The notes beneath the pieces are model-generated. The model searched no databases, was not told the origin of the DNA, and was given only the letters and a program-made list of their open reading frames with translations. 64,000 bases of DNA from Candidatus Levybacteria bacterium RIFCSPLOWO2_12_FULL_41_12 (GTDB taxonomy: Bacteria; Patescibacteriota; Microgenomatia; Levybacterales; UBA12049): the NCBI GenBank assembly GCA_001784155.1, contig MFPL01000002.1:108520-172519 (forward strand), given 5' to 3'. Made by a program: the position numbers and the translations under genes. Positions 56,568 to 64,000 of this stretch are shown here, one piece after another; positions within the stretch are counted from its first letter, which is position 1; every line of letters starts with the position of its first letter.

Positions 56568-59500
56568 TCTTAACCCCTACTGTCGGCTCTTCTGCTCCAG
56601 CTTGTGCTACATGAAGATCCGAGCCTTTTTCAGCTACTACCTTATCTCCGCCCGCTGCTTCCTGAAGATCATGAGCCTCTTTTCCCAATTTTTCATCGGC
56701 CTTCTGCTCAACAATTGCCTCACCCAATGGCTCTGTAAGAAGGGGTTCAGGCGTAACTGTCGCTCCCATTGGAACAACATTAAGTCCTAGCGCCTGAAGC
56801 TCTTTTATAAGAACTTTAAATGATTCCGGAACCTTAGGTGTAGGAATTGAAGTTCCCTTAACGATTGCCTCAAATGCTTTAGCGCGACCGACAACGTCGT
56901 CTGACTTAATTGTCAACATTTCCTGAAGAGTATAGCGCGCCCTGTGTGCTTCAAGCGCCCATACTTCCATTTCTCCAAGGCGCTGTCCTCCCATTTGCGC
57001 TTTTCCTCCAAGAGGCTGCTGTGTAACCAAAGAGTATGGTCCGGTGGAGCGGGCGTGGGTCTTATCTTCAACCATATGAATTAGCTTCATAACATATTCA
57101 ACCCCTACAACTACCGGATTCTCGTATGGCTCCCCAGTTCTTGCGTCAAAAAGAGTTGTCTTTCCTTTTTCCGGAAGTCCGGCACTCTTTAGACTCTCTG
57201 TAATTCTTTCTTCGTCAATCTTTTCAAAAACAGGAACTGCAATTTTCTTGCCTAATTTTAATGCTGCCCACCCCAGATGTGCTTCGAGAAGTTGTCCCAG
57301 ATTCATTCTCGCAAGTACCGAGAAGGGGGAAATAATAATGTCCACGGGCGTTCCGTCTTCCAGGTACGGCATGTCTACTTCAGGAACAATTTTTGAAATA
57401 ACTCCTTTATTTCCGTGTCTTCCCGCGAGTTTATCTCCCACCACAACGTGACGGAATTGTGCGACCTCAACAATAATCTTTCGAAATGTACCCGGCTCAA
57501 GCTCGTCTCCTTTTTTGCGGTCAAGAATTTGAACGCTTATTACGGTTCCTCGTTCTCCATTGGGCATTCTAAGCGAAGTGTCCCGTACTTCCCGAGCCTG
57601 TTCGCCGAAAATAGCGCGTAGAAGCCGCTCTTCTGCAGTAAGTTCTGTTTCGCCTTTTGGTGCAATTTTTCCGACCAGAATGTCTCCGGGTCCGACTTCC
57701 GATGAAACAACTACGATTCCTTCTTCATCAAGGTTTGCTAAATCTTCCTCAGAAACGTTAGGGATGTCCCTAGTTGTCTCCTCAGGTCCAAGCTTTGTCT
57801 CAACAACTGCAGCTTCGTATTTCTCAATGTGTATCGAGGAAAGAGAATCTTCTTTTACCATTCTATCCGAAATAACGATAGCGTCTTCATAGCCTAAGCC
57901 GTCAAAGGAGGCATATGCTATTACTAAGTTTTGCCCCAATGCCAATTCTCCGTTTTGAGAAGAAGGTCCGTCTATTAAAATCTCGCCTTTCTTGAGCTTT
58001 TGTCCGTTTTTTACCAATGTTCGCTGAGTATATGCAGTGGCTTGAGACGTTCTTCGGAATGAGGAAACCTTATATTCCTCCTCTTTCTTTCCCTTTCCCT
58101 TAAAGATTACTTTTTCTGCATCTGCATAAATCACTTCTCCATCCTCTGGCGCCCTAACGACTCTGGACATTACTGCGGAAACAGTACCTTCCATTCCTGT
58201 TCCGACTATCGGAGAATGAGGCGAAACCAAAGGTACTGCCTGAGACTGCATGTGGGTACCCATAAGAGCTCTGTTTGCTTCATCGTGAGATACAAAAGGA
58301 ATAAGTGAGGCTGCAGTTCCTACGACTTGGCGTGGCATCATATCGATAAATTCGATTTTCTCTTTTTCTACCTCTATAAATTCTCCCTTATATCTCGCAG
58401 GAATCCTTTCTCCCTCTATCGTCTGATCTTCATTAATCACTCCAGAATGGGTAACGTAATGGTCTCTCTCGTCAGCTGCGTCCATATAAACGATTTCATC
58501 TGTCGCTTTAGCGTGAACAATCTTGCCTTTTTTTGCCTGTTCTACTTTTCTATATGGTGTCTCAAGAAATCCGTACTGATTGATTCTTGTATACAGTGAA
58601 AGATATGTCACAAGACCGATATTCGGACCTTCAGGACTTCTTATGGGACAAATTCTTCCGTATTGAGAAGAATTAATGTCTCTTATAGAGAAAGCTGCGC
58701 GCTCCCTCGTTATTCCGCCTGTTCCCATAACAGTCAAACGGTTAAGATTGTCTACTTCGGATAATGGGTTCGTTTGATCTAGAATTGTTGAAAGCTGGGA
58801 TGTTCGGAAGAATTCGTTAATCGATGCCATAATTGGCCTTGCATTGATTAATCCTGAAATGGTAACCGGCTGATCTGCCTGAATAAGGCTCATTCTTTCC
58901 TTAATTGAGCGCTCAAGACGCAGAACTCCGACCCGAAATGCAGTTGATGCTACAAGCTCTCCGACGCGTCTTACACGCCTGTTTGCCAAAGAGTCAATAT
59001 CATCCACTCCGTCTTTTCCGCGAGCAAGCTCTATAAGAAAAGCAATAGTTCCCACAATGTCGTCAACTGTTAGGATCCTCTGATCAGATGGAACAAATCC
59101 CGGAATACCTTGCAGCTTTTTATTGATCTTATAGCGTCCTACATCTCCCAGATCATACCTTCTGTTATTGAAGAACGTTCCGGAAAAGTTTTCTCTTACT
59201 TTCTCGAGAACTATTGGTTCGCCCGGATGCATTTTCTTAAATATCTCAACGAGCGCTTCGTTTGTATTGGTAACTTCATCCTTAAGAAGTGTGTTTTGAA
59301 TATAGGAAGTCTTGTCATCCGGCTCAACTGCCTTAAATCTTTCCTTTATGGCATCGGAGTCTGAAATTCCAATTGCCCGAAGGAAGGTGGTAGCCAGGAA
59401 TTTTCTTCTTCTGTCAATTTTTACGGTTATGGTCTCGTATCTTGTTGTTGAAAATTCAAGCCACGATCCGTGGACCGGGCGTATCTCTGCTGTATAAAGA

Positions 59501-59970
59501 GTCTGTCCGGTAACAGGGTCCTGCGTAGCTGTAAAAAACGCTCCGGGGGAGCGCACGAGTTGACTGACTATAGCTCTTTCAATTCCGTTAATAATAAAAG
59601 TTCCCCGTTCTGTCATCTTTGGAACGTCGCCTAAGAAGACTTCCTGATTTATTTTTTCGTCTGTTTTTTTATTGGTTAGTGTGGCTTTGACGTATAAGGG
59701 GGAGTCGTAGGTAAGGCCTTTGTAGATAGATACCTCAGGACTATTGGTAGGCTTTCCAATTCTATAATCCTTAAGTTCCAGATTCCAATTCTTTCCCGTA
59801 AAGTCATCCACAGGAGATATTTCAGAGAGTATTTCTCCAATTCCGCGGTCTTCAAACCATTTGTATGATTCCTTTTGAAGAGAGAGTAGATCAAGTTCAA
59901 GTAGTACGGGATACTTCCTGCCCCAGTCCTCTCGAGTAATGTGGTCTGTGTTCTTATCTGCCTTAGCCAT
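56560..59970 (-). CDS. rpoB: DNA-directed RNA polymerase subunit beta
   Basis: 1136 aa with conserved beta-subunit regions (FGEMEVWALEAH, GGQRLGEME). Overlaps rpoC by 8 nt. Confidence 0.97.
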   Translation of the reverse strand: MAKADKNTDHITREDWGRKYPVLLELDLLSLQKESYKWFEDRGIGEILSEISPVDDFTGKNWNLELKDYRIGKPTNSPEVSIYKGLTYDSPLYVKATLTNKKTDEKINQEVFLGDVPKMTERGTFIINGIERAIVSQLVRSPGAFFTATQDPVTGQTLYTAEIRPVHGSWLEFSTTRYETITVKIDRRRKFLATTFLRAIGISDSDAIKERFKAVEPDDKTSYIQNTLLKDEVTNTNEALVEIFKKMHPGEPIVLEKVRENFSGTFFNNRRYDLGDVGRYKINKKLQGIPGFVPSDQRILTVDDIVGTIAFLIELARGKDGVDDIDSLANRRVRRVGELVASTAFRVGVLRLERSIKERMSLIQADQPVTISGLINARPIMASINEFFRTSQLSTILDQTNPLSEVDNLNRLTVMGTGGITRERAAFSIRDINSSQYGRICPIRSPEGPNIGLVTYLSLYTRINQYGFLETPYRKVEQAKKGKIVHAKATDEIVYMDAADERDHYVTHSGVINEDQTIEGERIPARYKGEFIEVEKEKIEFIDMMPRQVVGTAASLIPFVSHDEANRALMGTHMQSQAVPLVSPHSPIVGTGMEGTVSAVMSRVVRAPEDGEVIYADAEKVIFKGKGKKEEEYKVSSFRRTSQATAYTQRTLVKNGQKLKKGEILIDGPSSQNGELALGQNLVIAYASFDGLGYEDAIVISDRMVKEDSLSSIHIEKYEAAVVETKLGPEETTRDIPNVSEEDLANLDEEGIVVVSSEVGPGDILVGKIAPKGETELTAEERLLRAIFGEQAREVRDTSLRMPNGERGTVISVQILDRKKGDELEPGTFRKIIVEVAQFRHVVVGDKLAGRHGNKGVISKIVPEVDMPYLEDGTPVDIIISPFSVLARMNLGQLLEAHLGWAALKLGKKIAVPVFEKIDEERITESLKSAGLPEKGKTTLFDARTGEPYENPVVVGVEYVMKLIHMVEDKTHARSTGPYSLVTQQPLGGKAQMGGQRLGEMEVWALEAHRARYTLQEMLTIKSDDVVGRAKAFEAIVKGTSIPTPKVPESFKVLIKELQALGLNVVPMGATVTPEPLLTEPLGEAIVEQKADEKLGKEAHDLQEAAGGDKVVAEKGSDLHVAQAGAEEPTVGVKNE

Positions 59971-60153
59971 TTATGAAAAAACCCTAAAGAAGCCTATATC
60001 AACAAAAAAAATGCACAAGGTGCACTAGCCTACATATAAAAAGCTTCCCCTAAAGTAATTCCTTTATACCAGAAGAGAACGGAGGCTGTCAAGGAGTAAA
60101 CAATAGAATTCTCTTGCCTTGCCATTGGGTTTGGGATACTCTTAAAATATCCT

Positions 60154-61200
60154 ATGGATGGGCTTGACCCCGCTATCAAGAGGAAATTAAAAAAAGAAGA
60201 GCTTCGCTACGCAATGGACGATCGGGACGGCTTTATCAGGCAAAAGTTCGGACGCGACTTTAGATACTACGACACAGAGCTTAAAAGAATAAGTGACAAG
60301 AAAACACTTGAAAGAATTGAGGCTTTGGGAATTCCCCCGGCATGGACCAAAGTCTGGATTTCTCCCCAGAAAAATACCCACCTTCAGGCTACAGGATATG
60401 ACGAAAAGAAAAGAAAGCAATACATTTATCACCCCGACTGGATAAAAATTTCACAGGAAAATAAATTCGGGAAGATGGTAGACTTCGGCCTTTCTCTTCC
60501 CAAAATAAGAAGCAAGGTCCGCTACGATATGAGTGGCACCATTATGGATAAGAAAAAGATTCTCGCGACTATAGTTTGGCTCCTTGAGCATACATTTATA
60601 AGAATAGGAAATGAGCAGTACAGCCGCGGAAACGAGTCATATGGATTGACTACGCTAAGGAACAAACACGTCCAGGTACGCGGAGATAAAGTAAAATTTG
60701 AGTTCGTCGGAAAATCAGGCGTAGAGGCAGAGCTATCAATTTCAAACCCGACAATTGCCAAGACCATAAGGCGCTGCATCGAGCTTCCGGGCTACGAACT
60801 ATTTCAGTTCATTGATGATGAGGGAGAGAAAAGAGTGGTGGATTCAGAAGACGTAAATGAATTCCTAAAAGAGGTTACGAAGGAGGATTTTACTGCGAAG
60901 GACTTCAGAACCTGGGGTGCGAGCGACCTCTCCGCCAATTATTTCTATAAAGCCGGGCATAGCGATGATAAGAAAGTTCTTAAGGCGACTATAAAAGAGG
61001 CTATAAAAACAGTCTCGGGATATCTTAATAATACAGTTACAGTTTGCCGCTCTTACTACATTCACCCGGCTGTTATAAAGACTTATGAAGAAAATATTCT
61101 AGTCCCCCACTTTGGAAGACATTCGGGAAGAAAGCCTGCGATAAGTGGCCTTTCGTGGGATGAAGTGGCGTTAGTCCGCCTCCTTCAGAAATACTCCTAA
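60154..61200 (+). CDS. DNA topoisomerase IB (poxvirus/bacterial TopIB type)
   Basis: 348 aa. IRIGNEQYSRGNESYGLTTLRNKHV, FEFVGKSG, TWGAS and C-terminal TVCRSYYIHP carrying the likely active-site Tyr. Confidence 0.65.
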   Translation: MDGLDPAIKRKLKKEELRYAMDDRDGFIRQKFGRDFRYYDTELKRISDKKTLERIEALGIPPAWTKVWISPQKNTHLQATGYDEKKRKQYIYHPDWIKISQENKFGKMVDFGLSLPKIRSKVRYDMSGTIMDKKKILATIVWLLEHTFIRIGNEQYSRGNESYGLTTLRNKHVQVRGDKVKFEFVGKSGVEAELSISNPTIAKTIRRCIELPGYELFQFIDDEGEKRVVDSEDVNEFLKEVTKEDFTAKDFRTWGASDLSANYFYKAGHSDDKKVLKATIKEAIKTVSGYLNNTVTVCRSYYIHPAVIKTYEENILVPHFGRHSGRKPAISGLSWDEVALVRLLQKYS

Positions 61201-61461
61201 TTACTTCTTGTGGATATATTTGCTCCAGGCTTTTTTGAAGTACGGGAGGGAAAGCGTTGAGAGAAGAAAACCTACTGAGGGAACTATGGCATTAAGCCAG
61301 GGTTCAATTCTTACTACATATTTTAAATAAAGCGCGATCGCGAGATATGTGAGGAGCGCCAGAACTACTTTCCTCGTGATTGAAGTTTCCCAAGCTTTGT
61401 CTTGCTCCACCTTACTGTTTCGCTCTTCTATTTTTGCGACTCTTTCTTCAAGACTTACCAT
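61201..61461 (-). CDS. Small hypothetical membrane protein (86 aa, 2 TM)
   Basis: Coiled-coil N-terminus followed by two hydrophobic helices. Immediately upstream of def. Confidence 0.35.
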   Translation of the reverse strand: MVSLEERVAKIEERNSKVEQDKAWETSITRKVVLALLTYLAIALYLKYVVRIEPWLNAIVPSVGFLLSTLSLPYFKKAWSKYIHKK

Positions 61462-61468
61462 AAATAAA

Positions 61469-62044
61469 TTATATCAATTTGTATTCTATTTTTGTGGTTT
61501 TGGAGTTTTTCAACTGCTGAGGGGAGTTTCTTATGTTTTTTCTATAGTGCTTTTTTGTAATTATCTTGCTGTAGTCACTGACTTTTTCCATAAATTCCAC
61601 GCCATTTAGGTGATCCATCTCATGGAATATAATTCTTGCCAGAATCCCGTCTGCCTTTAATCTAAATAGCAAACCGCGCTCGTCATAGGCTTCGACTTGG
61701 ACTTCCCTTGGTCGTAAAACAGGACCGAATAGATCTCCTATGCTTCCGCAGCCTTCGTAAATGAGCGACTTATCTTTTGATTGGAAAGTGATTTTGGGAT
61801 CTATATAGACTCTTACTTTATCTGTCTTCCCGAGCTTTCTAGCCTTCGTAGTTCTAGGGTGAGTTATGAAAACCATATAGTTTTCGCCTATTTGGGGCGC
61901 GGCAATTCCTATTAGATCTGCTTTATGCATGGAATCAATTAAATTCCGGACCAACTTCTTGAACTCAGGCGATTTAAAGTTTTTAATAAGCCTATTCTTC
62001 GCTTTAAGTCTTCGGTCCCCTGCCTGAATAATCTTTTTTACCAC
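61469..62044 (-). CDS. def: Peptide deformylase
   Basis: 191 aa. GIAAPQIG, EGCGS and HEMDHLNG motifs. Confidence 0.9.
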   Translation of the reverse strand: MVKKIIQAGDRRLKAKNRLIKNFKSPEFKKLVRNLIDSMHKADLIGIAAPQIGENYMVFITHPRTTKARKLGKTDKVRVYIDPKITFQSKDKSLIYEGCGSIGDLFGPVLRPREVQVEAYDERGLLFRLKADGILARIIFHEMDHLNGVEFMEKVSDYSKIITKKHYRKNIRNSPQQLKNSKTTKIEYKLI

Positions 62045-62109
62045 GGGGGGATTATATCACTAATAGTTACAAATCTTGCTTTACTGCAAAAAGCTATTAT
62101 AATATCCAG

Positions 62110-62550
62110 ATGGTTGAGGGTGCCCGGAGAAGTCCTATCGTTGTTCAAACCAAAGAAGAACTGCACAGAGAGTCGGTTATAGAAAACCTCTCTGTAGAGG
62201 ATAGGCCTCCTGTTCTTATTCCAACAATCACCTCCCCAATAGGAAGGGTTTTTAATAATGAGATTGCAGGATATTATGCTTATGTTCCTCCTCTAGGGTC
62301 AACCCTTCGGGACAGACTGAAAGGACCTCATGGCGGAATAAAAGAATTTATATCACCGGATGGAGCGACAACGGGATTTGCAAAGCCTATCAAGTTGACC
62401 GTTGAGGAGGGCGAGGCAGTTCTAATAAGAAGAGGTATTGCGCTTAGAAAAGGTCCGGGAGCACTTGAAGAAACTCCTGTTCGTAAATGGGCGTCCAATA
62501 TCCCCGGCGCACGCCGCTATTTAGGGTTTGGCAGCCCAGGCCCCTGGTAG
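62110..62550 (+). CDS. Hypothetical protein, GC/Gly/Pro/Arg-rich (compositionally atypical)
   Basis: 146-aa ORF with no recognisable motifs. Composition unlike the local genes. Confidence 0.3.
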   Translation: MVEGARRSPIVVQTKEELHRESVIENLSVEDRPPVLIPTITSPIGRVFNNEIAGYYAYVPPLGSTLRDRLKGPHGGIKEFISPDGATTGFAKPIKLTVEEGEAVLIRRGIALRKGPGALEETPVRKWASNIPGARRYLGFGSPGPW

Positions 62551-62605
62551 AATCTTTTCCATTATAAGTTGCAAAATTTGAAAATCTGAATATAATGTAA
62601 CGACT

Positions 62606-62908
62606 ATGGGAGGACCAATAGAGAAGGGCGCACCACAGACGGAAGCGGATACGGCTCCAAGGGGAAGCCTGTTTACAGCTAGGATTTTCGAATGGGAAAT
62701 GGGTGTTTATAAAGCGGCTGGAAGATCTATACAAGGCTTATGCGTGGAATTTGTATCTGCAAAAGCTGATAGGGTAAGACTTAGAGGCTTTAGAGACCAT
62801 CAAGTTCTTCTAGTAGTAACTCACGATAAAGCAGTAGATTTTACTCCTTACCTTCAAAGGGTCCAAGAACTTCGGGGACAGCCGAAATCGGGCACATCAG
62901 AAAGCTAA
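62606..62908 (+). CDS. Hypothetical protein, GC-rich (compositionally atypical)
   Basis: 100-aa ORF that follows the previous one in the same orientation. Confidence 0.3.
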   Translation: MGGPIEKGAPQTEADTAPRGSLFTARIFEWEMGVYKAAGRSIQGLCVEFVSAKADRVRLRGFRDHQVLLVVTHDKAVDFTPYLQRVQELRGQPKSGTSES

Positions 62909-62925
62909 GCTAAGAAGTCAAATTA

Positions 62926-63195
62926 TCATTCTAATTTTCTCAAGAATTTGAGAATGGTAGTACCCAGAGGCGAAAGTTCGTGTAAAACGTCTGCCCCTCT
63001 GTTTCTTTTTGAAACTAAACCTGAAATCGCAAGACGCCGGATATGTTCGCTTGCTGTTTTGTAATTTATTTTGAGTTTAGTCGAAATCTCCAGAACGGAA
63101 AGGTTAGGATATGTATTTATAAGCTCTAATATTTGAATTCTTCTATGGTTGGAAAATCCCTTAACAATTCTTTCCATTTTTCTGTAAGAAATCAT
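62926..63195 (-). CDS. ArsR/SmtB-family winged-helix transcriptional regulator
   Basis: 89 aa. HRRIQILELINTYPNLSVLEISTKLKINYKTASEHIRRLAISGLV is the classic ArsR HTH. Confidence 0.7.
   Translation of the reverse strand: MISYRKMERIVKGFSNHRRIQILELINTYPNLSVLEISTKLKINYKTASEHIRRLAISGLVSKRNRGADVLHELSPLGTTILKFLRKLE
62946..62963. promoter_or_regulatory. Palindromic operator-like element copy 1 (TTCTCAAGAATTTGAGAA) inside the 3' end of the ArsR-family gene
   Basis: 8-bp inverted arms ATTCTCAA/TTGAGAAT around GAAT. It encodes the C-terminal ILKFLRK of the regulator. Confidence 0.45.
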
Positions 63196-63222
63196 AAATT
63201 TATCGTATCACTTCATTCCTAA

Positions 63223-63242
63223 ATTCTCAAGAATTTGAGAAT
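63223..63242. promoter_or_regulatory. Palindromic operator-like element copy 2 (ATTCTCAAGAATTTGAGAAT), 28 nt upstream of the ArsR-family start
   Basis: Perfect copy with the conserved flanks AAATTCTCAAGAATTTGAGAATGAT. Confidence 0.5.
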
Positions 63243-63360
63243 GATAGATTTGGGTGTTTTAATACTCAATACGAAAAGTGATGGGGCGGGCAGGCAAGTA
63301 TTTAAGGATGTTTGTGTTTGAGTTTGTTTATAGCTACAGACTGTCACATGCATTCTGGTT

Positions 63361-63379
63361 TTCTTAAGAATTTGAGAAT
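63361..63379. promoter_or_regulatory. Palindromic operator-like element copy 3 (TTCTTAAGAATTTGAGAAT; one mismatch)
   Basis: Variant half-site TTCTTAAG. Confidence 0.4.
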
Positions 63380-63563
63380 GCTGGAGTTGAATCTCGGGGA
63401 GCGGAGCGCTTGTGCTGTTTACCCCGAGTCGTAATGAAGGGGGTAAACCGAAGTAAGCCCTGAAGTCGGGTTTGGAAGGTTATGCTGACCGAAATTTGCC
63501 GAGGACTATAGAGTCAAATTAAAATGTGGGCCGCTTACTTTCCATCCCGGAATTATACAAAAA

Positions 63564-63590
63564 AACAGCCGTTAGGCTGCTTTTTTTAAT
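63564..63590 (+). terminator. Intrinsic terminator (CAGCC-GUUA-GGCUG plus U8)
   Basis: AACAGCCGTTAGGCTGCTTTTTTT on the plus strand. It would end a roughly 200-nt plus-strand transcript that begins after operator copy 3. Confidence 0.5.
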
Positions 63591-63799
63591 TCAGGAGGTG
63601 CGGGCAATTCCTCATCTGACATGCTTTCGCAAGTGCCTGGAGCTGGAGCCCGACTTCCCAGGTCTTCTGAATTACAAACATTATACCACTTAATTCAAGT
63701 CTTGTCTCTTTCTCTAACCTTTTTCAACTCTTCTTGGGGTATACCGTATGGATTATGCATAATCTTACTGCTCGGAAGTCAAATTAATATTGTTCTTAA

Positions 63800-63819
63800 A
63801 TTCTCAAGAATTTGAGAAT
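63800..63819. promoter_or_regulatory. Palindromic operator-like element copy 4 (ATTCTCAAGAATTTGAGAAT)
   Basis: Perfect copy with the same extended flanks (TTAAATTCTCAAGAATTTGAGAATGATGA). Confidence 0.5.
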
Positions 63820-64000
63820 GATGAACTGGTAAACTCGAGTATTTAAGGGTAGTTCGTGTTGGGTGGGTTTTTGGGTTGGAAGGTTATGCCGACCGAAATT
63901 TGCCGAGCGGCTAAGAAAAATTAAATATTAGCCAGAATAAAGCAATTTTAACTTAATCGAGGTTCACCGAAAGCCTTGGGACCTGCTGGTTCCCAGGGAG

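What the first reader, a model, noticed from the sequence alone, without database searches (positions are those of the whole stretch)
62926..63830. ArsR-family repressor surrounded by four copies of an 18-20 bp perfect palindrome with conserved flanks
ATTCTCAA-GAAT-TTGAGAAT occurs at 62946 (inside the regulator's own 3' coding end), at 63223 (28 nt upstream of its start), at 63361 (one mismatch) and at 63800. Each copy carries a conserved extended context AAATTCTCAAGAATTTGAGAATGAT. Four operators in under 900 bp around an 89-aa winged-helix regulator suggests autoregulation and control of adjacent plus-strand transcripts. The intragenic copy encoding ILKFLRK is unusual.
Basis: seen in the sequence. 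Interest (0 to 1): 0.55.

Follow-up and report, generated by a model that had tools for sequence, protein, structure and literature searches.

The report
Regulator gene carrying its own operator
A small DNA-binding regulator of a groundwater 'candidate phyla radiation' bacterium is bracketed by copies of a 28-bp palindrome. One copy is written into the gene's own last nine codons, and this arrangement is conserved across hundreds of related genomes, where the palindrome also occurs far from the gene, even in-frame inside housekeeping genes.

Summary
The four repeats are real (window 62928-62955, 63215-63242, 63352-63379, 63792-63819) and occur nowhere else in 73 kb. The conserved unit is a 28-bp palindrome, ATTCTnnnnTTCTTrAGAAnnnnAGAAT.

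The 89-aa protein has an ArsR/SmtB fold closest to HlyU, with no cysteine and no metal-site motif. The organism is Candidatus Levybacteria.

In about 80 homologous loci, nearly every gene has one palindrome 2-110 nt upstream of its ATG, at or just upstream of a mostly leaderless promoter. A second forms codons 81-89 plus the stop codon's T. Synonymous sites there are frozen (Arg86 AGA 70/70 versus 28% elsewhere).

A clade whose palindrome centre changed to TTTTGCAAAA also changed otherwise invariant recognition-helix residues. So the protein very probably binds this site and autoregulates.

However, about 80% of the palindromes in a metagenome scan lie away from any such gene, in all intergenic contexts and in-frame inside TsaD, IscS, Tgt, Fmt and MiaB. 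The local four-operator picture is therefore incomplete.

Verdict: a new variant of a known kind, not described in the searched literature. No binding experiment exists.

The parts
62926..63195 (-). Gene for an 89-aa winged-helix protein with the ArsR/SmtB fold (a1 4-14, a2 17-28, a3 34-41, recognition helix 45-57, b-hairpin 61-74, a5 76-88). It has no Cys and no a5 metal motif.
   Evidence: ORF. Pfam HTH_5 28 bits against cut-off 22. PDB profile hit to HlyU E=3.5e-9. AlphaFold pLDDT 90. Foldseek TM 0.80-0.85 to YgaV, HlyU, CadC and CzrA. 1189 homologues at about 70% identity and a fixed length of 89 aa across CPR phyla.
62928..62955 (-). S1: the intragenic copy of the 28-bp palindrome, made of codons Ile81-Glu89 plus the T of the TGA stop (ATTCTCAAATTCTTGAGAAAATTAGAAT on the gene strand). 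It encodes the C-terminal two-thirds of helix a5.
   Evidence: Synonymous sites are frozen family-wide. The stop-codon choice co-varies with codon 80.
63215..63242 (-). S2: the promoter-proximal copy (ATTCTCAAATTCTTGAGAATTTAGGAAT on the gene strand), ending 19 nt before the ATG.
   Evidence: The equivalent site is present upstream of nearly all homologues.
63202..63230 (-). Predicted promoter of the regulator: -35 TTGAGA (63230-63225, inside S2), 17-nt spacer with TG, -10 TACGAT (63207-63202), ATG at 63195, six nt after the -10. This implies a leaderless mRNA.
   Evidence: Consensus scan. The same geometry recurs in homologues (the -10 to ATG distance is 6 nt in 21 of 70). This is a prediction only; no TSS data exist.
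63352..63379 (-). S3: a further copy (ATTCTCAAATTCTTAAGAAAACCAGAAT on the gene strand), with 10 of 14 mirrored pairs, in non-coding mosaic sequence.
63792..63819 (-). S4: a further copy (ATTCTCAAATTCTTGAGAATTTAAGAAC on the gene strand). It is followed by the same TAATTTGACTTC motif that follows S1.
   Evidence: The layout D4-S4-D1 resembles the regulator cassette without its gene body (inference).
62909..62930 (-). Copy of the local boundary motif TAATTTGACTTCTTAGC directly after the regulator's stop codon. Other window copies are at 63512-63525 and 63770-63791.
   Evidence: The motif is specific to this genome.

Best explanation
The 89-aa protein is a dimeric ArsR/SmtB-fold DNA-binding protein. 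It resembles HlyU and has no metal site. Its cognate site is the 28-bp palindrome ATTCTnnnnTTCTTrAGAAnnnnAGAAT.

At S2 the palindrome's central TTGAGA is the -35 hexamer of the gene's own leaderless promoter. Bound protein should therefore exclude RNA polymerase, giving negative autoregulation.

S1 is a second genuine site, written into the codons of the dimerisation helix and the stop codon. Its role is inferred only: auxiliary operator, roadblock to convergent or read-through transcription, or a bridging partner.

S3 and S4 are extra sites in a locally duplicated, partly deleted mosaic next to the gene.

The pair belongs to a system found across the candidate phyla radiation (CPR). The same protein family and palindrome occur together in hundreds of genomes. 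The palindrome also occurs at perhaps tens of further places per genome, so the protein probably acts at many loci rather than only locally.

Shown here: the site architecture, its conservation, DNA-level selection on the coding copy, and protein-site co-variation. Inferred: binding, repression, and the role of S1, S3, S4 and the dispersed copies.
For: - Fold and family.
- Specificity of the site model: a PWM built from the 3' ends gives 229 hits of at least 12 bits in 830 kb of homologue loci, against 2 in shuffles.
- Two-site architecture: nearly every locus has a site at the 3' end and another 2-110 nt upstream of the ATG. The apparent exceptions are contig ends, variant-centre sites or an upstream operon partner.
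- Enrichment at the gene: site density is 2.1 per kb within 250 bp of the gene, against about 0.04 per kb at 2-6 kb.
- Symmetry: upstream copies are more symmetric (13-14 of 14 pairs in 47 of 77) than coding copies (mode 10).
- Promoter geometry: a -10-like hexamer was scored between the upstream site and the ATG in 70 of 76 genes; 36 of the 70 carry TG; 36 lie 4-10 nt before the ATG. In the window, TTGAGA-17-TACGAT lies 6 nt before the ATG.
- DNA-level selection on S1: Arg86 is AGA in 70/70 (28% AGA elsewhere in the gene); Phe84 is TTC in 71/73 (32% elsewhere); Glu89 is GAA in 72/73 (60% elsewhere); Leu85 is almost only TTR (70 of 71). Other conserved columns have near-maximal codon entropy.
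- Specificity switch: in loci L041, L046, L074 and L085 the centre is TTTTGCAAAA in the coding copy (FLR becomes FCK) and in every upstream copy. These proteins carry N44G, T47N and R54K in recognition-helix columns that are otherwise 76/76, 76/76 and 75/76 invariant.
- The two tandem paralogues in L052 each have an upstream site that matches their own coding centre.
Against: - No binding or expression data exist.
- Only 27 of 129 palindromes in a metagenome scan adjoin a wHTH ORF. The solo copies lie between convergent genes (15), between co-directional genes (28), between divergent genes (8) and inside ORFs (21). A promoter-occluding repressor does not explain this spread.
- Positions with no sequence conservation (N4 and up to 6 flanking bp) are still complementary within a site. 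At outward flank positions 2-5 the observed fractions are 0.68, 0.60, 0.47 and 0.48, against 0.36, 0.33, 0.29 and 0.30 for shuffled partners, sd 0.05. This points to hairpin formation or a palindrome-perfecting mutation process on top of protein recognition.
- No convincing promoter lies next to S3 or S4.
- The distance between the two sites shows no helical phasing, p about 0.09.
- The score against the NCBIfam metalloregulator model is below its cut-off, 43 against 55.
- The specificity-switch clade may represent only one or two evolutionary events.
Confidence: 0.7

Rival explanations
1. The palindrome is primarily a dispersed, self-propagating palindromic repeat, comparable to REP elements or the Rickettsia palindromic elements that sit in-frame in genes. 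It spreads by insertion or gene conversion, and the regulator gene is just one place where it landed or was co-opted.
For: - Solo copies occur in every genomic context with no conserved neighbour gene.
- Of the 16 inside-ORF cases examined, 13 read in the single stop-free frame as [HY]S-x-[IV]L-[EK]-N-x-R-[MI]. They lie in TsaD (two different positions), IscS, Tgt, Fmt, MiaB, MnmA, Mur ligases and PolB.
- In IscS the element is intact in 8 of 120 homologues and decayed in about 30 more.
- Complementarity extends into non-conserved flanks.
- In this window the copies sit in a mosaic of other repeats, and D4-S4-D1 looks like a recombination derivative.
Against: - Copy number is low: roughly 0.04 per kb away from the gene and none in 62 kb of this window outside the cluster.
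- The primary sequence is conserved across phyla, unlike typical REP families.
- No transposase or RAYT-like gene is associated.
- In IscS and Fmt the element overlies native sequence of similar length rather than forming a clean insertion, and no target-site duplication is seen.
- There are 0 hits in viral contigs.
- Recognition-helix co-variation links the palindrome to the protein.
- This rival is not exclusive of the best explanation.
Confidence: 0.15
2. The palindromes are partner sites for site-specific recombination (11-6-11 like dif or pdif, or integron-like cassette boundaries), so the regulator gene is an excisable or invertible cassette in the adjacent gene array.
For: - The gene is bracketed by two similar sites about 290 bp apart in every lineage.
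- The rare centre variant TGCA is shared by both partner sites.
- The 28-bp length fits an 11-6-11 layout.
- In this genome the gene borders a cassette-like array of small, defence-type genes.
- D4-S4-D1 looks like a deletion product between S2 and S1.
Against: - The asymmetric centre is in direct and inverted orientation equally often, TTGA/TTGA 14 against TTGA/TCAA 14.
- No recombinase lies near the gene in any locus inspected.
- In many lineages the gene sits in stable synteny with dnaX or rsmI.
- Cassette boundaries in this array are marked by a different motif, TAATTTGACTTCTTAGC, not by the palindrome.
- No R''/L''/L'/R' attC architecture could be recognised.
- Solo copies lie inside essential genes.
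Confidence: 0.05
3. The element works as an RNA hairpin (a 3'-end stabiliser, processing site or terminator) rather than as double-stranded DNA.
For: - Many copies lie on or just after stop codons.
- Stems extend to 17-21 bp through complementary, non-conserved flanks.
- T-G mismatches (possible U-G wobbles on the sense strand) occur in coding copies.
- Convergent intergenic positions make up 15 of the 51 intergenic solo copies, nearly twice the divergent count of 8.
Against: - In the leaderless class the upstream copy lies at about -47 to -20, upstream of the predicted start, so that mRNA does not contain it.
- There is no U-tract after the stem.
- A-C mismatches are about as frequent as G-T.
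- Copies occur in divergent regions.
- The window's own copies fold weakly, -4.8 to -6.3 kcal/mol as ssDNA.
- There is no Rfam match.
- The strict primary-sequence conservation and helix co-variation point to protein reading of duplex DNA.
Confidence: 0.07

Closest known systems
ArsR/SmtB-family autorepressors without metal sites (HlyU, SdpR, PagR, NolR) and their 12-2-12-type inverted-repeat operators (as for CzrA and SmtB)
   Same: Same fold and size; best sequence and structure matches. The site is a roughly 26-30 bp imperfect inverted repeat at the regulator's own promoter. Knowledge of the family's operators is from my own memory, not from a tool.
   Different: No sensing residues are recognisable. 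The family is CPR-specific with a fixed 89-aa length. A second operator is encoded by its own a5 codons and stop codon in all members. Sites are dispersed, including in-frame inside other genes.
Intragenic auxiliary operators and protein-binding sites inside the binder's own gene (lac O2 in lacZ, gal OI in galE, the parS site within B. subtilis spo0J/parB). Cited from my own knowledge.
   Same: A palindromic protein-binding site is tolerated inside a coding sequence, and for spo0J inside the gene of the protein that binds it. For parS, matS and SBS-type systems, further copies are scattered in other genes.
   Different: Here the site occupies the same nine codons plus the stop in every family member. 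It freezes synonymous positions and drives amino-acid replacements (FLR to FCK). No ParA/ParB-type partner is present, and no looping phase was detected.
Rickettsia palindromic elements and REP elements
   Same: Short palindromic DNA is found both between genes and in-frame inside housekeeping genes, translated in the one open frame, and decays with time.
   Different: The element is much shorter (28 bp against about 100-150 bp for RPE) and has a low copy number. It is conserved in sequence across phyla, has no clean insertion signature, and is tied to a cognate DNA-binding protein.

Membership tests
ArsR/SmtB family (Pfam HTH_5) | Sequence match to the family model above the curated threshold | tested here: met
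   PF01022 scores 28 bits against cut-off 22. PDB profile hits to HlyU at 3.5e-9 and to CadC, CzrA and SmtB.
ArsR/SmtB family | a1-a2-a3-aR-b1-b2-a5 winged-helix fold | tested here: met
   The AlphaFold model (pLDDT 90.4) has exactly this order of elements. Foldseek TM is 0.80-0.85 to YgaV, HlyU, CadC and CzrA.
ArsR/SmtB metalloregulators (sensor subgroup) | a3N CxC or a5 D/H-x-H-x10-H-x2-E/H metal ligands; NCBIfam NF033788 above cut-off | tested here: not met
   The protein has no Cys, and a5 (SPLGTTILKFLRKLE) has no His or Asp ligands (sequence). NF033788 scores 43 bits against cut-off 55.
ArsR/SmtB autorepressors | Inverted-repeat operator overlapping the regulator's own promoter | tested here: met
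   The 28-bp palindrome contains the predicted -35 in the window and lies upstream of the ATG in nearly all of 83 homologues. The promoter itself is predicted, not mapped.
ArsR/SmtB autorepressors | Protein binds the operator and represses transcription | not testable with these tools
   Only indirect support: recognition-helix changes N44G, T47N and R54K coincide with the operator-centre change.
Integron cassette array / attC sites | attC with R''-L''...L'-R' cores and extrahelical bases, plus an IntI integrase and attI | tested here: not met
   No RYYYAAC/GTTRRRY cores could be placed on the repeats. No integrase lies within 10 kb on either side.
Tyrosine-recombinase partner sites (dif/pdif-like) | Consistent relative orientation of the asymmetric central region between partner sites; an associated recombinase | tested here: not met
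   Direct and inverted orientations are 14 against 14. No recombinase was found in the neighbourhoods.
REP / RPE-type mobile palindromic repeats | High copy number, clean insertion relative to empty sites, associated transposase (RAYT) for REP | tested here: inconclusive
   In-frame copies in housekeeping genes exist. Against this, density is low, there is no clean insertion in IscS or Fmt, and no transposase is seen.
Known RNA families (Rfam 15) | Covariance-model match | tested here: not met
   No match in 58000-64000 except a chance-level CRISPR-DR65 hit at 62066-62102, E 0.89.

The most novel reading that the evidence does not exclude
The 89-aa protein and its 28-bp palindrome form a genome-wide system specific to the CPR/Patescibacteria. 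There would be tens of sites per roughly 1-Mb genome, placed between genes and in-frame within housekeeping genes (many of them tRNA-modification enzymes) and within the protein's own C-terminal codons. The protein would act as a global architectural or roadblock factor, in the manner of matS/MatP, SBS/SlmA or parS/ParB, rather than as a local repressor. The need to keep the DNA site dictates amino-acid sequence in the proteins that host it: FLR to FCK in the regulator, and coupled residue pairs in the HS-x-IL-E-N-x-RM peptide.
Probability: 0.3. Interest if true: 0.8.

Novelty: new variant of a known kind. Interest (0 to 1): 0.62.

Why it matters
CPR bacteria have very few recognisable regulators, and almost nothing is known about their transcriptional control. 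This analysis gives a concrete, testable protein-site pair conserved across the radiation.

It also provides an unusually clean case of dual coding. An operator is fixed inside the codons of the regulator's own dimerisation helix. The evidence is frozen synonymous sites, a stop-codon choice coupled to an upstream codon, and amino-acid replacements that follow a change in operator specificity.

The in-frame copies in essential genes show that a DNA-level signal can shape protein sequence across a whole radiation. If the dispersed copies are bound, the protein is a candidate global organiser for these minimal genomes.

Tried and rejected
- **Rfam** on 58-64 kb found nothing.
- **Integron/attC reading of the repeat mosaic.** It was attractive because small co-oriented genes each end in a conserved motif. 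I rejected it for the palindrome: there are no attC cores and no integrase, and the boundary motif is a different sequence that occurs only in this genome.
- **Decayed paralogue 3' ends** as the origin of the extra copies. Similarity starts exactly at the palindrome and no upstream coding similarity exists. Local duplication or recombination of the whole module remains possible.
- **Conserved partner gene.** None was found around solo palindromes or around the regulator beyond subclade synteny.
- **Phage origin.** There were 0 hits in viral contigs.
- **DNA looping with helical phasing.** Not significant.
- **N4 symmetry explained by lineage-specific protein specificity.** The result was inconclusive: within-site complementarity 0.70 against same-locus between-site identity 0.77.
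- **Literature.** Five searches for a prior description found none.
Full report
**Observation.** The motif ATTCTCAAGAATTTGAGAAT occurs four times in the window, at 62936 (1 mismatch), 63223 (exact), 63360 (2 mismatches) and 63800 (exact). The chance expectation is 0.01, and there are no other copies in the 64 kb. The 20-mer is not a perfect palindrome: it has 8-bp arms around GAAT. Only two copies share the full 25-nt context. The ORF 62926..63195 on the minus strand encodes 89 aa and matches Pfam HTH_5 above threshold.

**Source and surroundings.** The exact protein is on record from Candidatus Levybacteria bacterium RIFOXYA1_FULL_41_10 (GCA_001782595.1), a groundwater member of the candidate phyla radiation (CPR). 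The contig continues beyond the window (locus L001, reversed; window position = 73196 minus L001 position). No further palindrome copies occur in the next 9 kb.

The gene lies at the edge of an array of small co-oriented genes: PDDEXK_1, LTD, Trypsin_2, an AlwI-type restriction-modification pair, DUF3800, Gp49/HTH_3 and Fic. On the other side are def, a bacterial topoisomerase IB and rpoBC.

**The protein.**
- A profile of 19 family members hits HlyU (E 3.5e-9), then CadC, CzrA, PagR, SmtB and the archaeal centromere-binding protein AspA.
- An AlphaFold model (pLDDT 90.4) has the canonical order a1-a2-a3-aR-b1-b2-a5. It superposes on YgaV, HlyU, CadC and CzrA at TM 0.80-0.85.
- There is no cysteine, and a5 has no metal ligands. 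The NCBIfam metalloregulator model scores below its cut-off.
- The protein therefore has the ArsR/SmtB fold but is not a recognisable metal sensor.
- The family has more than 1100 members of almost invariant length 89, about 60-75% identical across CPR phyla, with a nearly invariant C-terminus ILKFLR[KTI]LE.

**The two-site architecture is family-wide.** I fetched 80 homologous loci from species-representative genomes plus four from contig look-ups. In all of them the last nine codons plus the T of the stop codon form a 28-bp palindrome, ATTCTnAnnTTCTTrAGAAnnTnAGAAT, with its axis between positions 14 and 15.

A weight matrix built from these 3' ends finds 229 sites of at least 12 bits in 830 kb, against 2 in shuffled sequence. 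Almost every locus has a second site 2-110 nt upstream of the ATG, and 36 of 82 loci have three to eight sites. The few apparent exceptions are genes at contig ends, variant-centre sites found by hand, or a gene that follows a small upstream ORF which itself has the site.

Site density falls from 2.1 per kb within 250 bp of the gene to about 0.04 per kb at 2-6 kb. Upstream copies are more symmetric than coding copies: 13-14 of 14 mirrored pairs in 47 of 77, against a mode of 10.

**The coding copy is under selection as DNA.** I compared 74 distinct genes. Conserved amino-acid columns outside the palindrome use synonymous codons almost at random; arginine columns, for example, have 2.3-2.5 bits of entropy over six codons. 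Inside the palindrome:

| Residue | Codon use in the palindrome | Same codon elsewhere in the gene |
|---|---|---|
| Arg86 | AGA 70/70 | 28% |
| Phe84 | TTC 71/73 | 32% |
| Glu89 | GAA 72/73 | 60% |
| Leu85 | TTR 70/71 | — |

The stop codon co-varies with codon 80 so as to extend the pairing. TAG goes with xCx (30 of 37) and TGA with xxC (8 of 12). Amino-acid variants also track DNA symmetry: ILMFLRTLE is the perfect palindrome ATTCTAATGTTCTTAAGAACATTAGAAT.

**The protein reads the palindrome.** In four loci (L041, L046, L074, L085) the palindrome centre is TTTTGCAAAA instead of TTCTTrAGAA. This holds in the coding copy, where FLR becomes FCK, and in every upstream copy available. Exactly these proteins carry N44G, T47N and R54K (plus K46E/Q) in the recognition helix. 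Those columns are otherwise invariant in 76/76, 76/76 and 75/76 sequences.

In L052, two tandem paralogues each have an upstream site that matches the centre of their own coding copy. This is the strongest computational evidence that the protein binds the site and that the coding copy is a real site. The caveat is that the switch may represent only one or two events.

**Promoter geometry.**
- In the window the consensus scan gives TTGAGA (63230-63225, the centre of S2), a 17-nt spacer with TG, then TACGAT (63207-63202). The ATG follows six nt later, with no Shine-Dalgarno sequence.
- Across homologues, a -10-like hexamer was scored between the site and the ATG in 70 of 76 genes, and 36 of those carry an extended TG.
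- The -10 to ATG distance is 6 nt in 21 cases and 4-10 nt in 36. Leaderless mRNAs are therefore common in the family.
- The palindrome centre falls at about -26 to -48.
- This fits repression by occlusion of the -35 region. The sign of regulation is inferred, not shown.

**The palindrome is not confined to the regulator.** Only 25 of these hold a family member, and only 27 of 129 palindromes adjoin one. A viral collection gave none. No neighbouring gene is conserved.

Of 72 solo copies with at least 400 nt on each side:

| Context | Copies |
|---|---|
| Between co-directional genes | 28 |
| Inside ORFs | 21 |
| Between convergent genes | 15 |
| Between divergent genes | 8 |

I examined 16 of the inside-ORF copies. 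Thirteen are in the only stop-free frame and read [HY]S-x-[IV]L-[EK]-N-x-R-[MI]. The host proteins verified by Pfam are TsaD, TGT, Fmt, a MiaB-like enzyme, MnmA, Mur ligases, family-B polymerase, PMT_2 and a glycosyltransferase. IscS carries the palindrome in two loci at the same position, and TsaD carries it at two different positions.

In 120 IscS homologues the peptide is intact in 8 and recognisably decayed in about 30 more. It overlies native sequence (FIKKIEEKIPQ) rather than forming a clean insertion. The dispersed copies are therefore old, not strongly maintained everywhere, and not obviously transposed.

**Structure-like signals.** Within a site, the non-conserved inner four bases and up to six flanking bases tend to be complementary. 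At outward flank positions 2-5 the observed fractions are 0.68, 0.60, 0.47 and 0.48, against 0.36, 0.33, 0.29 and 0.30 for shuffled partners, sd 0.05. Many upstream and solo copies are 34-42-bp perfect palindromes with unrelated outer sequences.

A dimeric protein alone does not explain this. Either hairpin or cruciform formation matters, or a palindrome-perfecting mutation process (template switching; my own knowledge) acts on these sites. A test to separate lineage-specific specificity from site-autonomous symmetry was inconclusive. The window's own copies are weak hairpins, -4.8 to -6.3 kcal/mol as ssDNA.

**Rivals.**
- **Directional recombination pair.** Contradicted by equal direct and inverted orientation of the asymmetric centre (14:14), by the absence of recombinases, and by stable synteny with dnaX or rsmI in subclades.
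- **RNA hairpin.** Contradicted for the upstream copy by its position upstream of the predicted start and by the lack of U-tracts.
- **Selfish palindromic repeat.** Explains the dispersed and in-frame copies. It does not explain the cross-phylum sequence conservation, the low density, or the helix co-variation. It may coexist with protein binding.

**Local anatomy in this window.** On the gene strand the order is:
- S4
- the boundary motif D1
- a promoter-like site and a terminator-flanked segment of about 115 nt
- D1, then D3
- a GC-rich hairpin
- S3
- D4
- S2
- the promoter
- the gene, with S1 in its last codons
- D1

D4-S4-D1 has the left context of S2 and the right context of S1. It looks like a copy of the regulator module that lost its gene body by recombination between the two sites (inference). 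D1, D3 and D4 occur in no other locus fetched. I found no convincing promoter beside S3 or S4.

**Comparison and novelty.** The kind is known: an ArsR/SmtB-fold autoregulator with an inverted-repeat operator at its promoter.

What is new:
- A CPR-wide family with an operator fixed in its own a5 codons and stop codon.
- Codon-level evidence of selection on that operator.
- Amino-acid changes that follow operator evolution.
- Dispersal of the same site, including in-frame in housekeeping genes.

Five literature searches found no description of this. All functional statements remain inferences from sequence.

Noticed in passing
L001 6961-10289; window copies at 62909-62930, 63512-63525, 63770-63791: There is a cassette-like array of small co-oriented genes. 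Each ends on or just before a 19-23-nt motif, TAATTTGACTTCTTAGCCC (7 copies). The motif is usually followed by a 37-nt promoter module (TTGCTTTATTTTGGCCTCAGATGTATAAT) and an ATG 8-10 nt after the -10, implying leaderless genes. The motif is absent from the 200 other loci fetched. No integrase was seen within 10 kb.
   Followed up: partly
window 63469-63503 and 63873-63907 (D3); 63290-63328 and 63831-63869 (D4): Two further repeat modules are interleaved with the palindromes. D4 contains CCTTAAATACT, half of a variant palindrome (ATCCTTAAATACTTGAGAATTTAAGGAT) seen as full sites in another Levybacteria locus, L006 at 3621 and 4404.
   Followed up: partly
window 63553-63710, minus strand: This is a candidate small RNA of about 115 nt (or a 31-aa ORF, 63586..63681). 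It has the promoter-like site GAGACA-17-TATAAT at 63708 to 63680, and a hairpin at 63566-63579 flanked by an A-run and a T-run, which would terminate in both directions. The RNA fold has a z-score of -3.2. There is no Rfam match.
   Followed up: partly
metagenome loci L102, L106, L109, L131, L141, L149, L181, L193, L194 and others: The palindrome sits in-frame inside housekeeping genes, several of them tRNA-modification enzymes (TsaD, IscS, Tgt, MnmA, MiaB, Fmt). It is read as [HY]S-x-[IV]L-[EK]-N-x-R-[MI], and residues 3 and 8 of the peptide are coupled through DNA complementarity, for example Gln CAA with Leu TTG and His CAC with Val GTG.
   Followed up: partly
L052 5937-8436: Two tandem paralogues of the regulator each have their own upstream site type. 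The centre is TGCA for the FCR protein and TTAA for the FLR protein.
   Followed up: partly
L055 10021-10804: A homologue of the PDDEXK_1 protein of this genome's cassette array (L001 8215-8895) is preceded by a palindrome 70 nt upstream in a Woesebacteria genome. Other sites in that locus lie upstream of obg and of small ORFs.
   Followed up: no
window 62110-62550 and 62606-62908, plus strand: Two ORFs (146 and 100 aa) with no Pfam or NCBIfam match converge on the regulator. The second ends 18 nt from the regulator's stop, so S1 lies between convergent genes.
   Followed up: no
window 60154-61200: This is a bacterial type IB topoisomerase (Top1B_N_bact plus Topoisom_I), next to def and rpoBC.
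   Followed up: no
L188 1961-2312: A more distant ArsR-like ORF (MDFLFKALANENRVRMINLL...; HMM E 3.6e-5) also has the palindrome 5 nt before a TATAAT and a leaderless ATG. More than one wHTH subfamily may therefore use this site.
   Followed up: no
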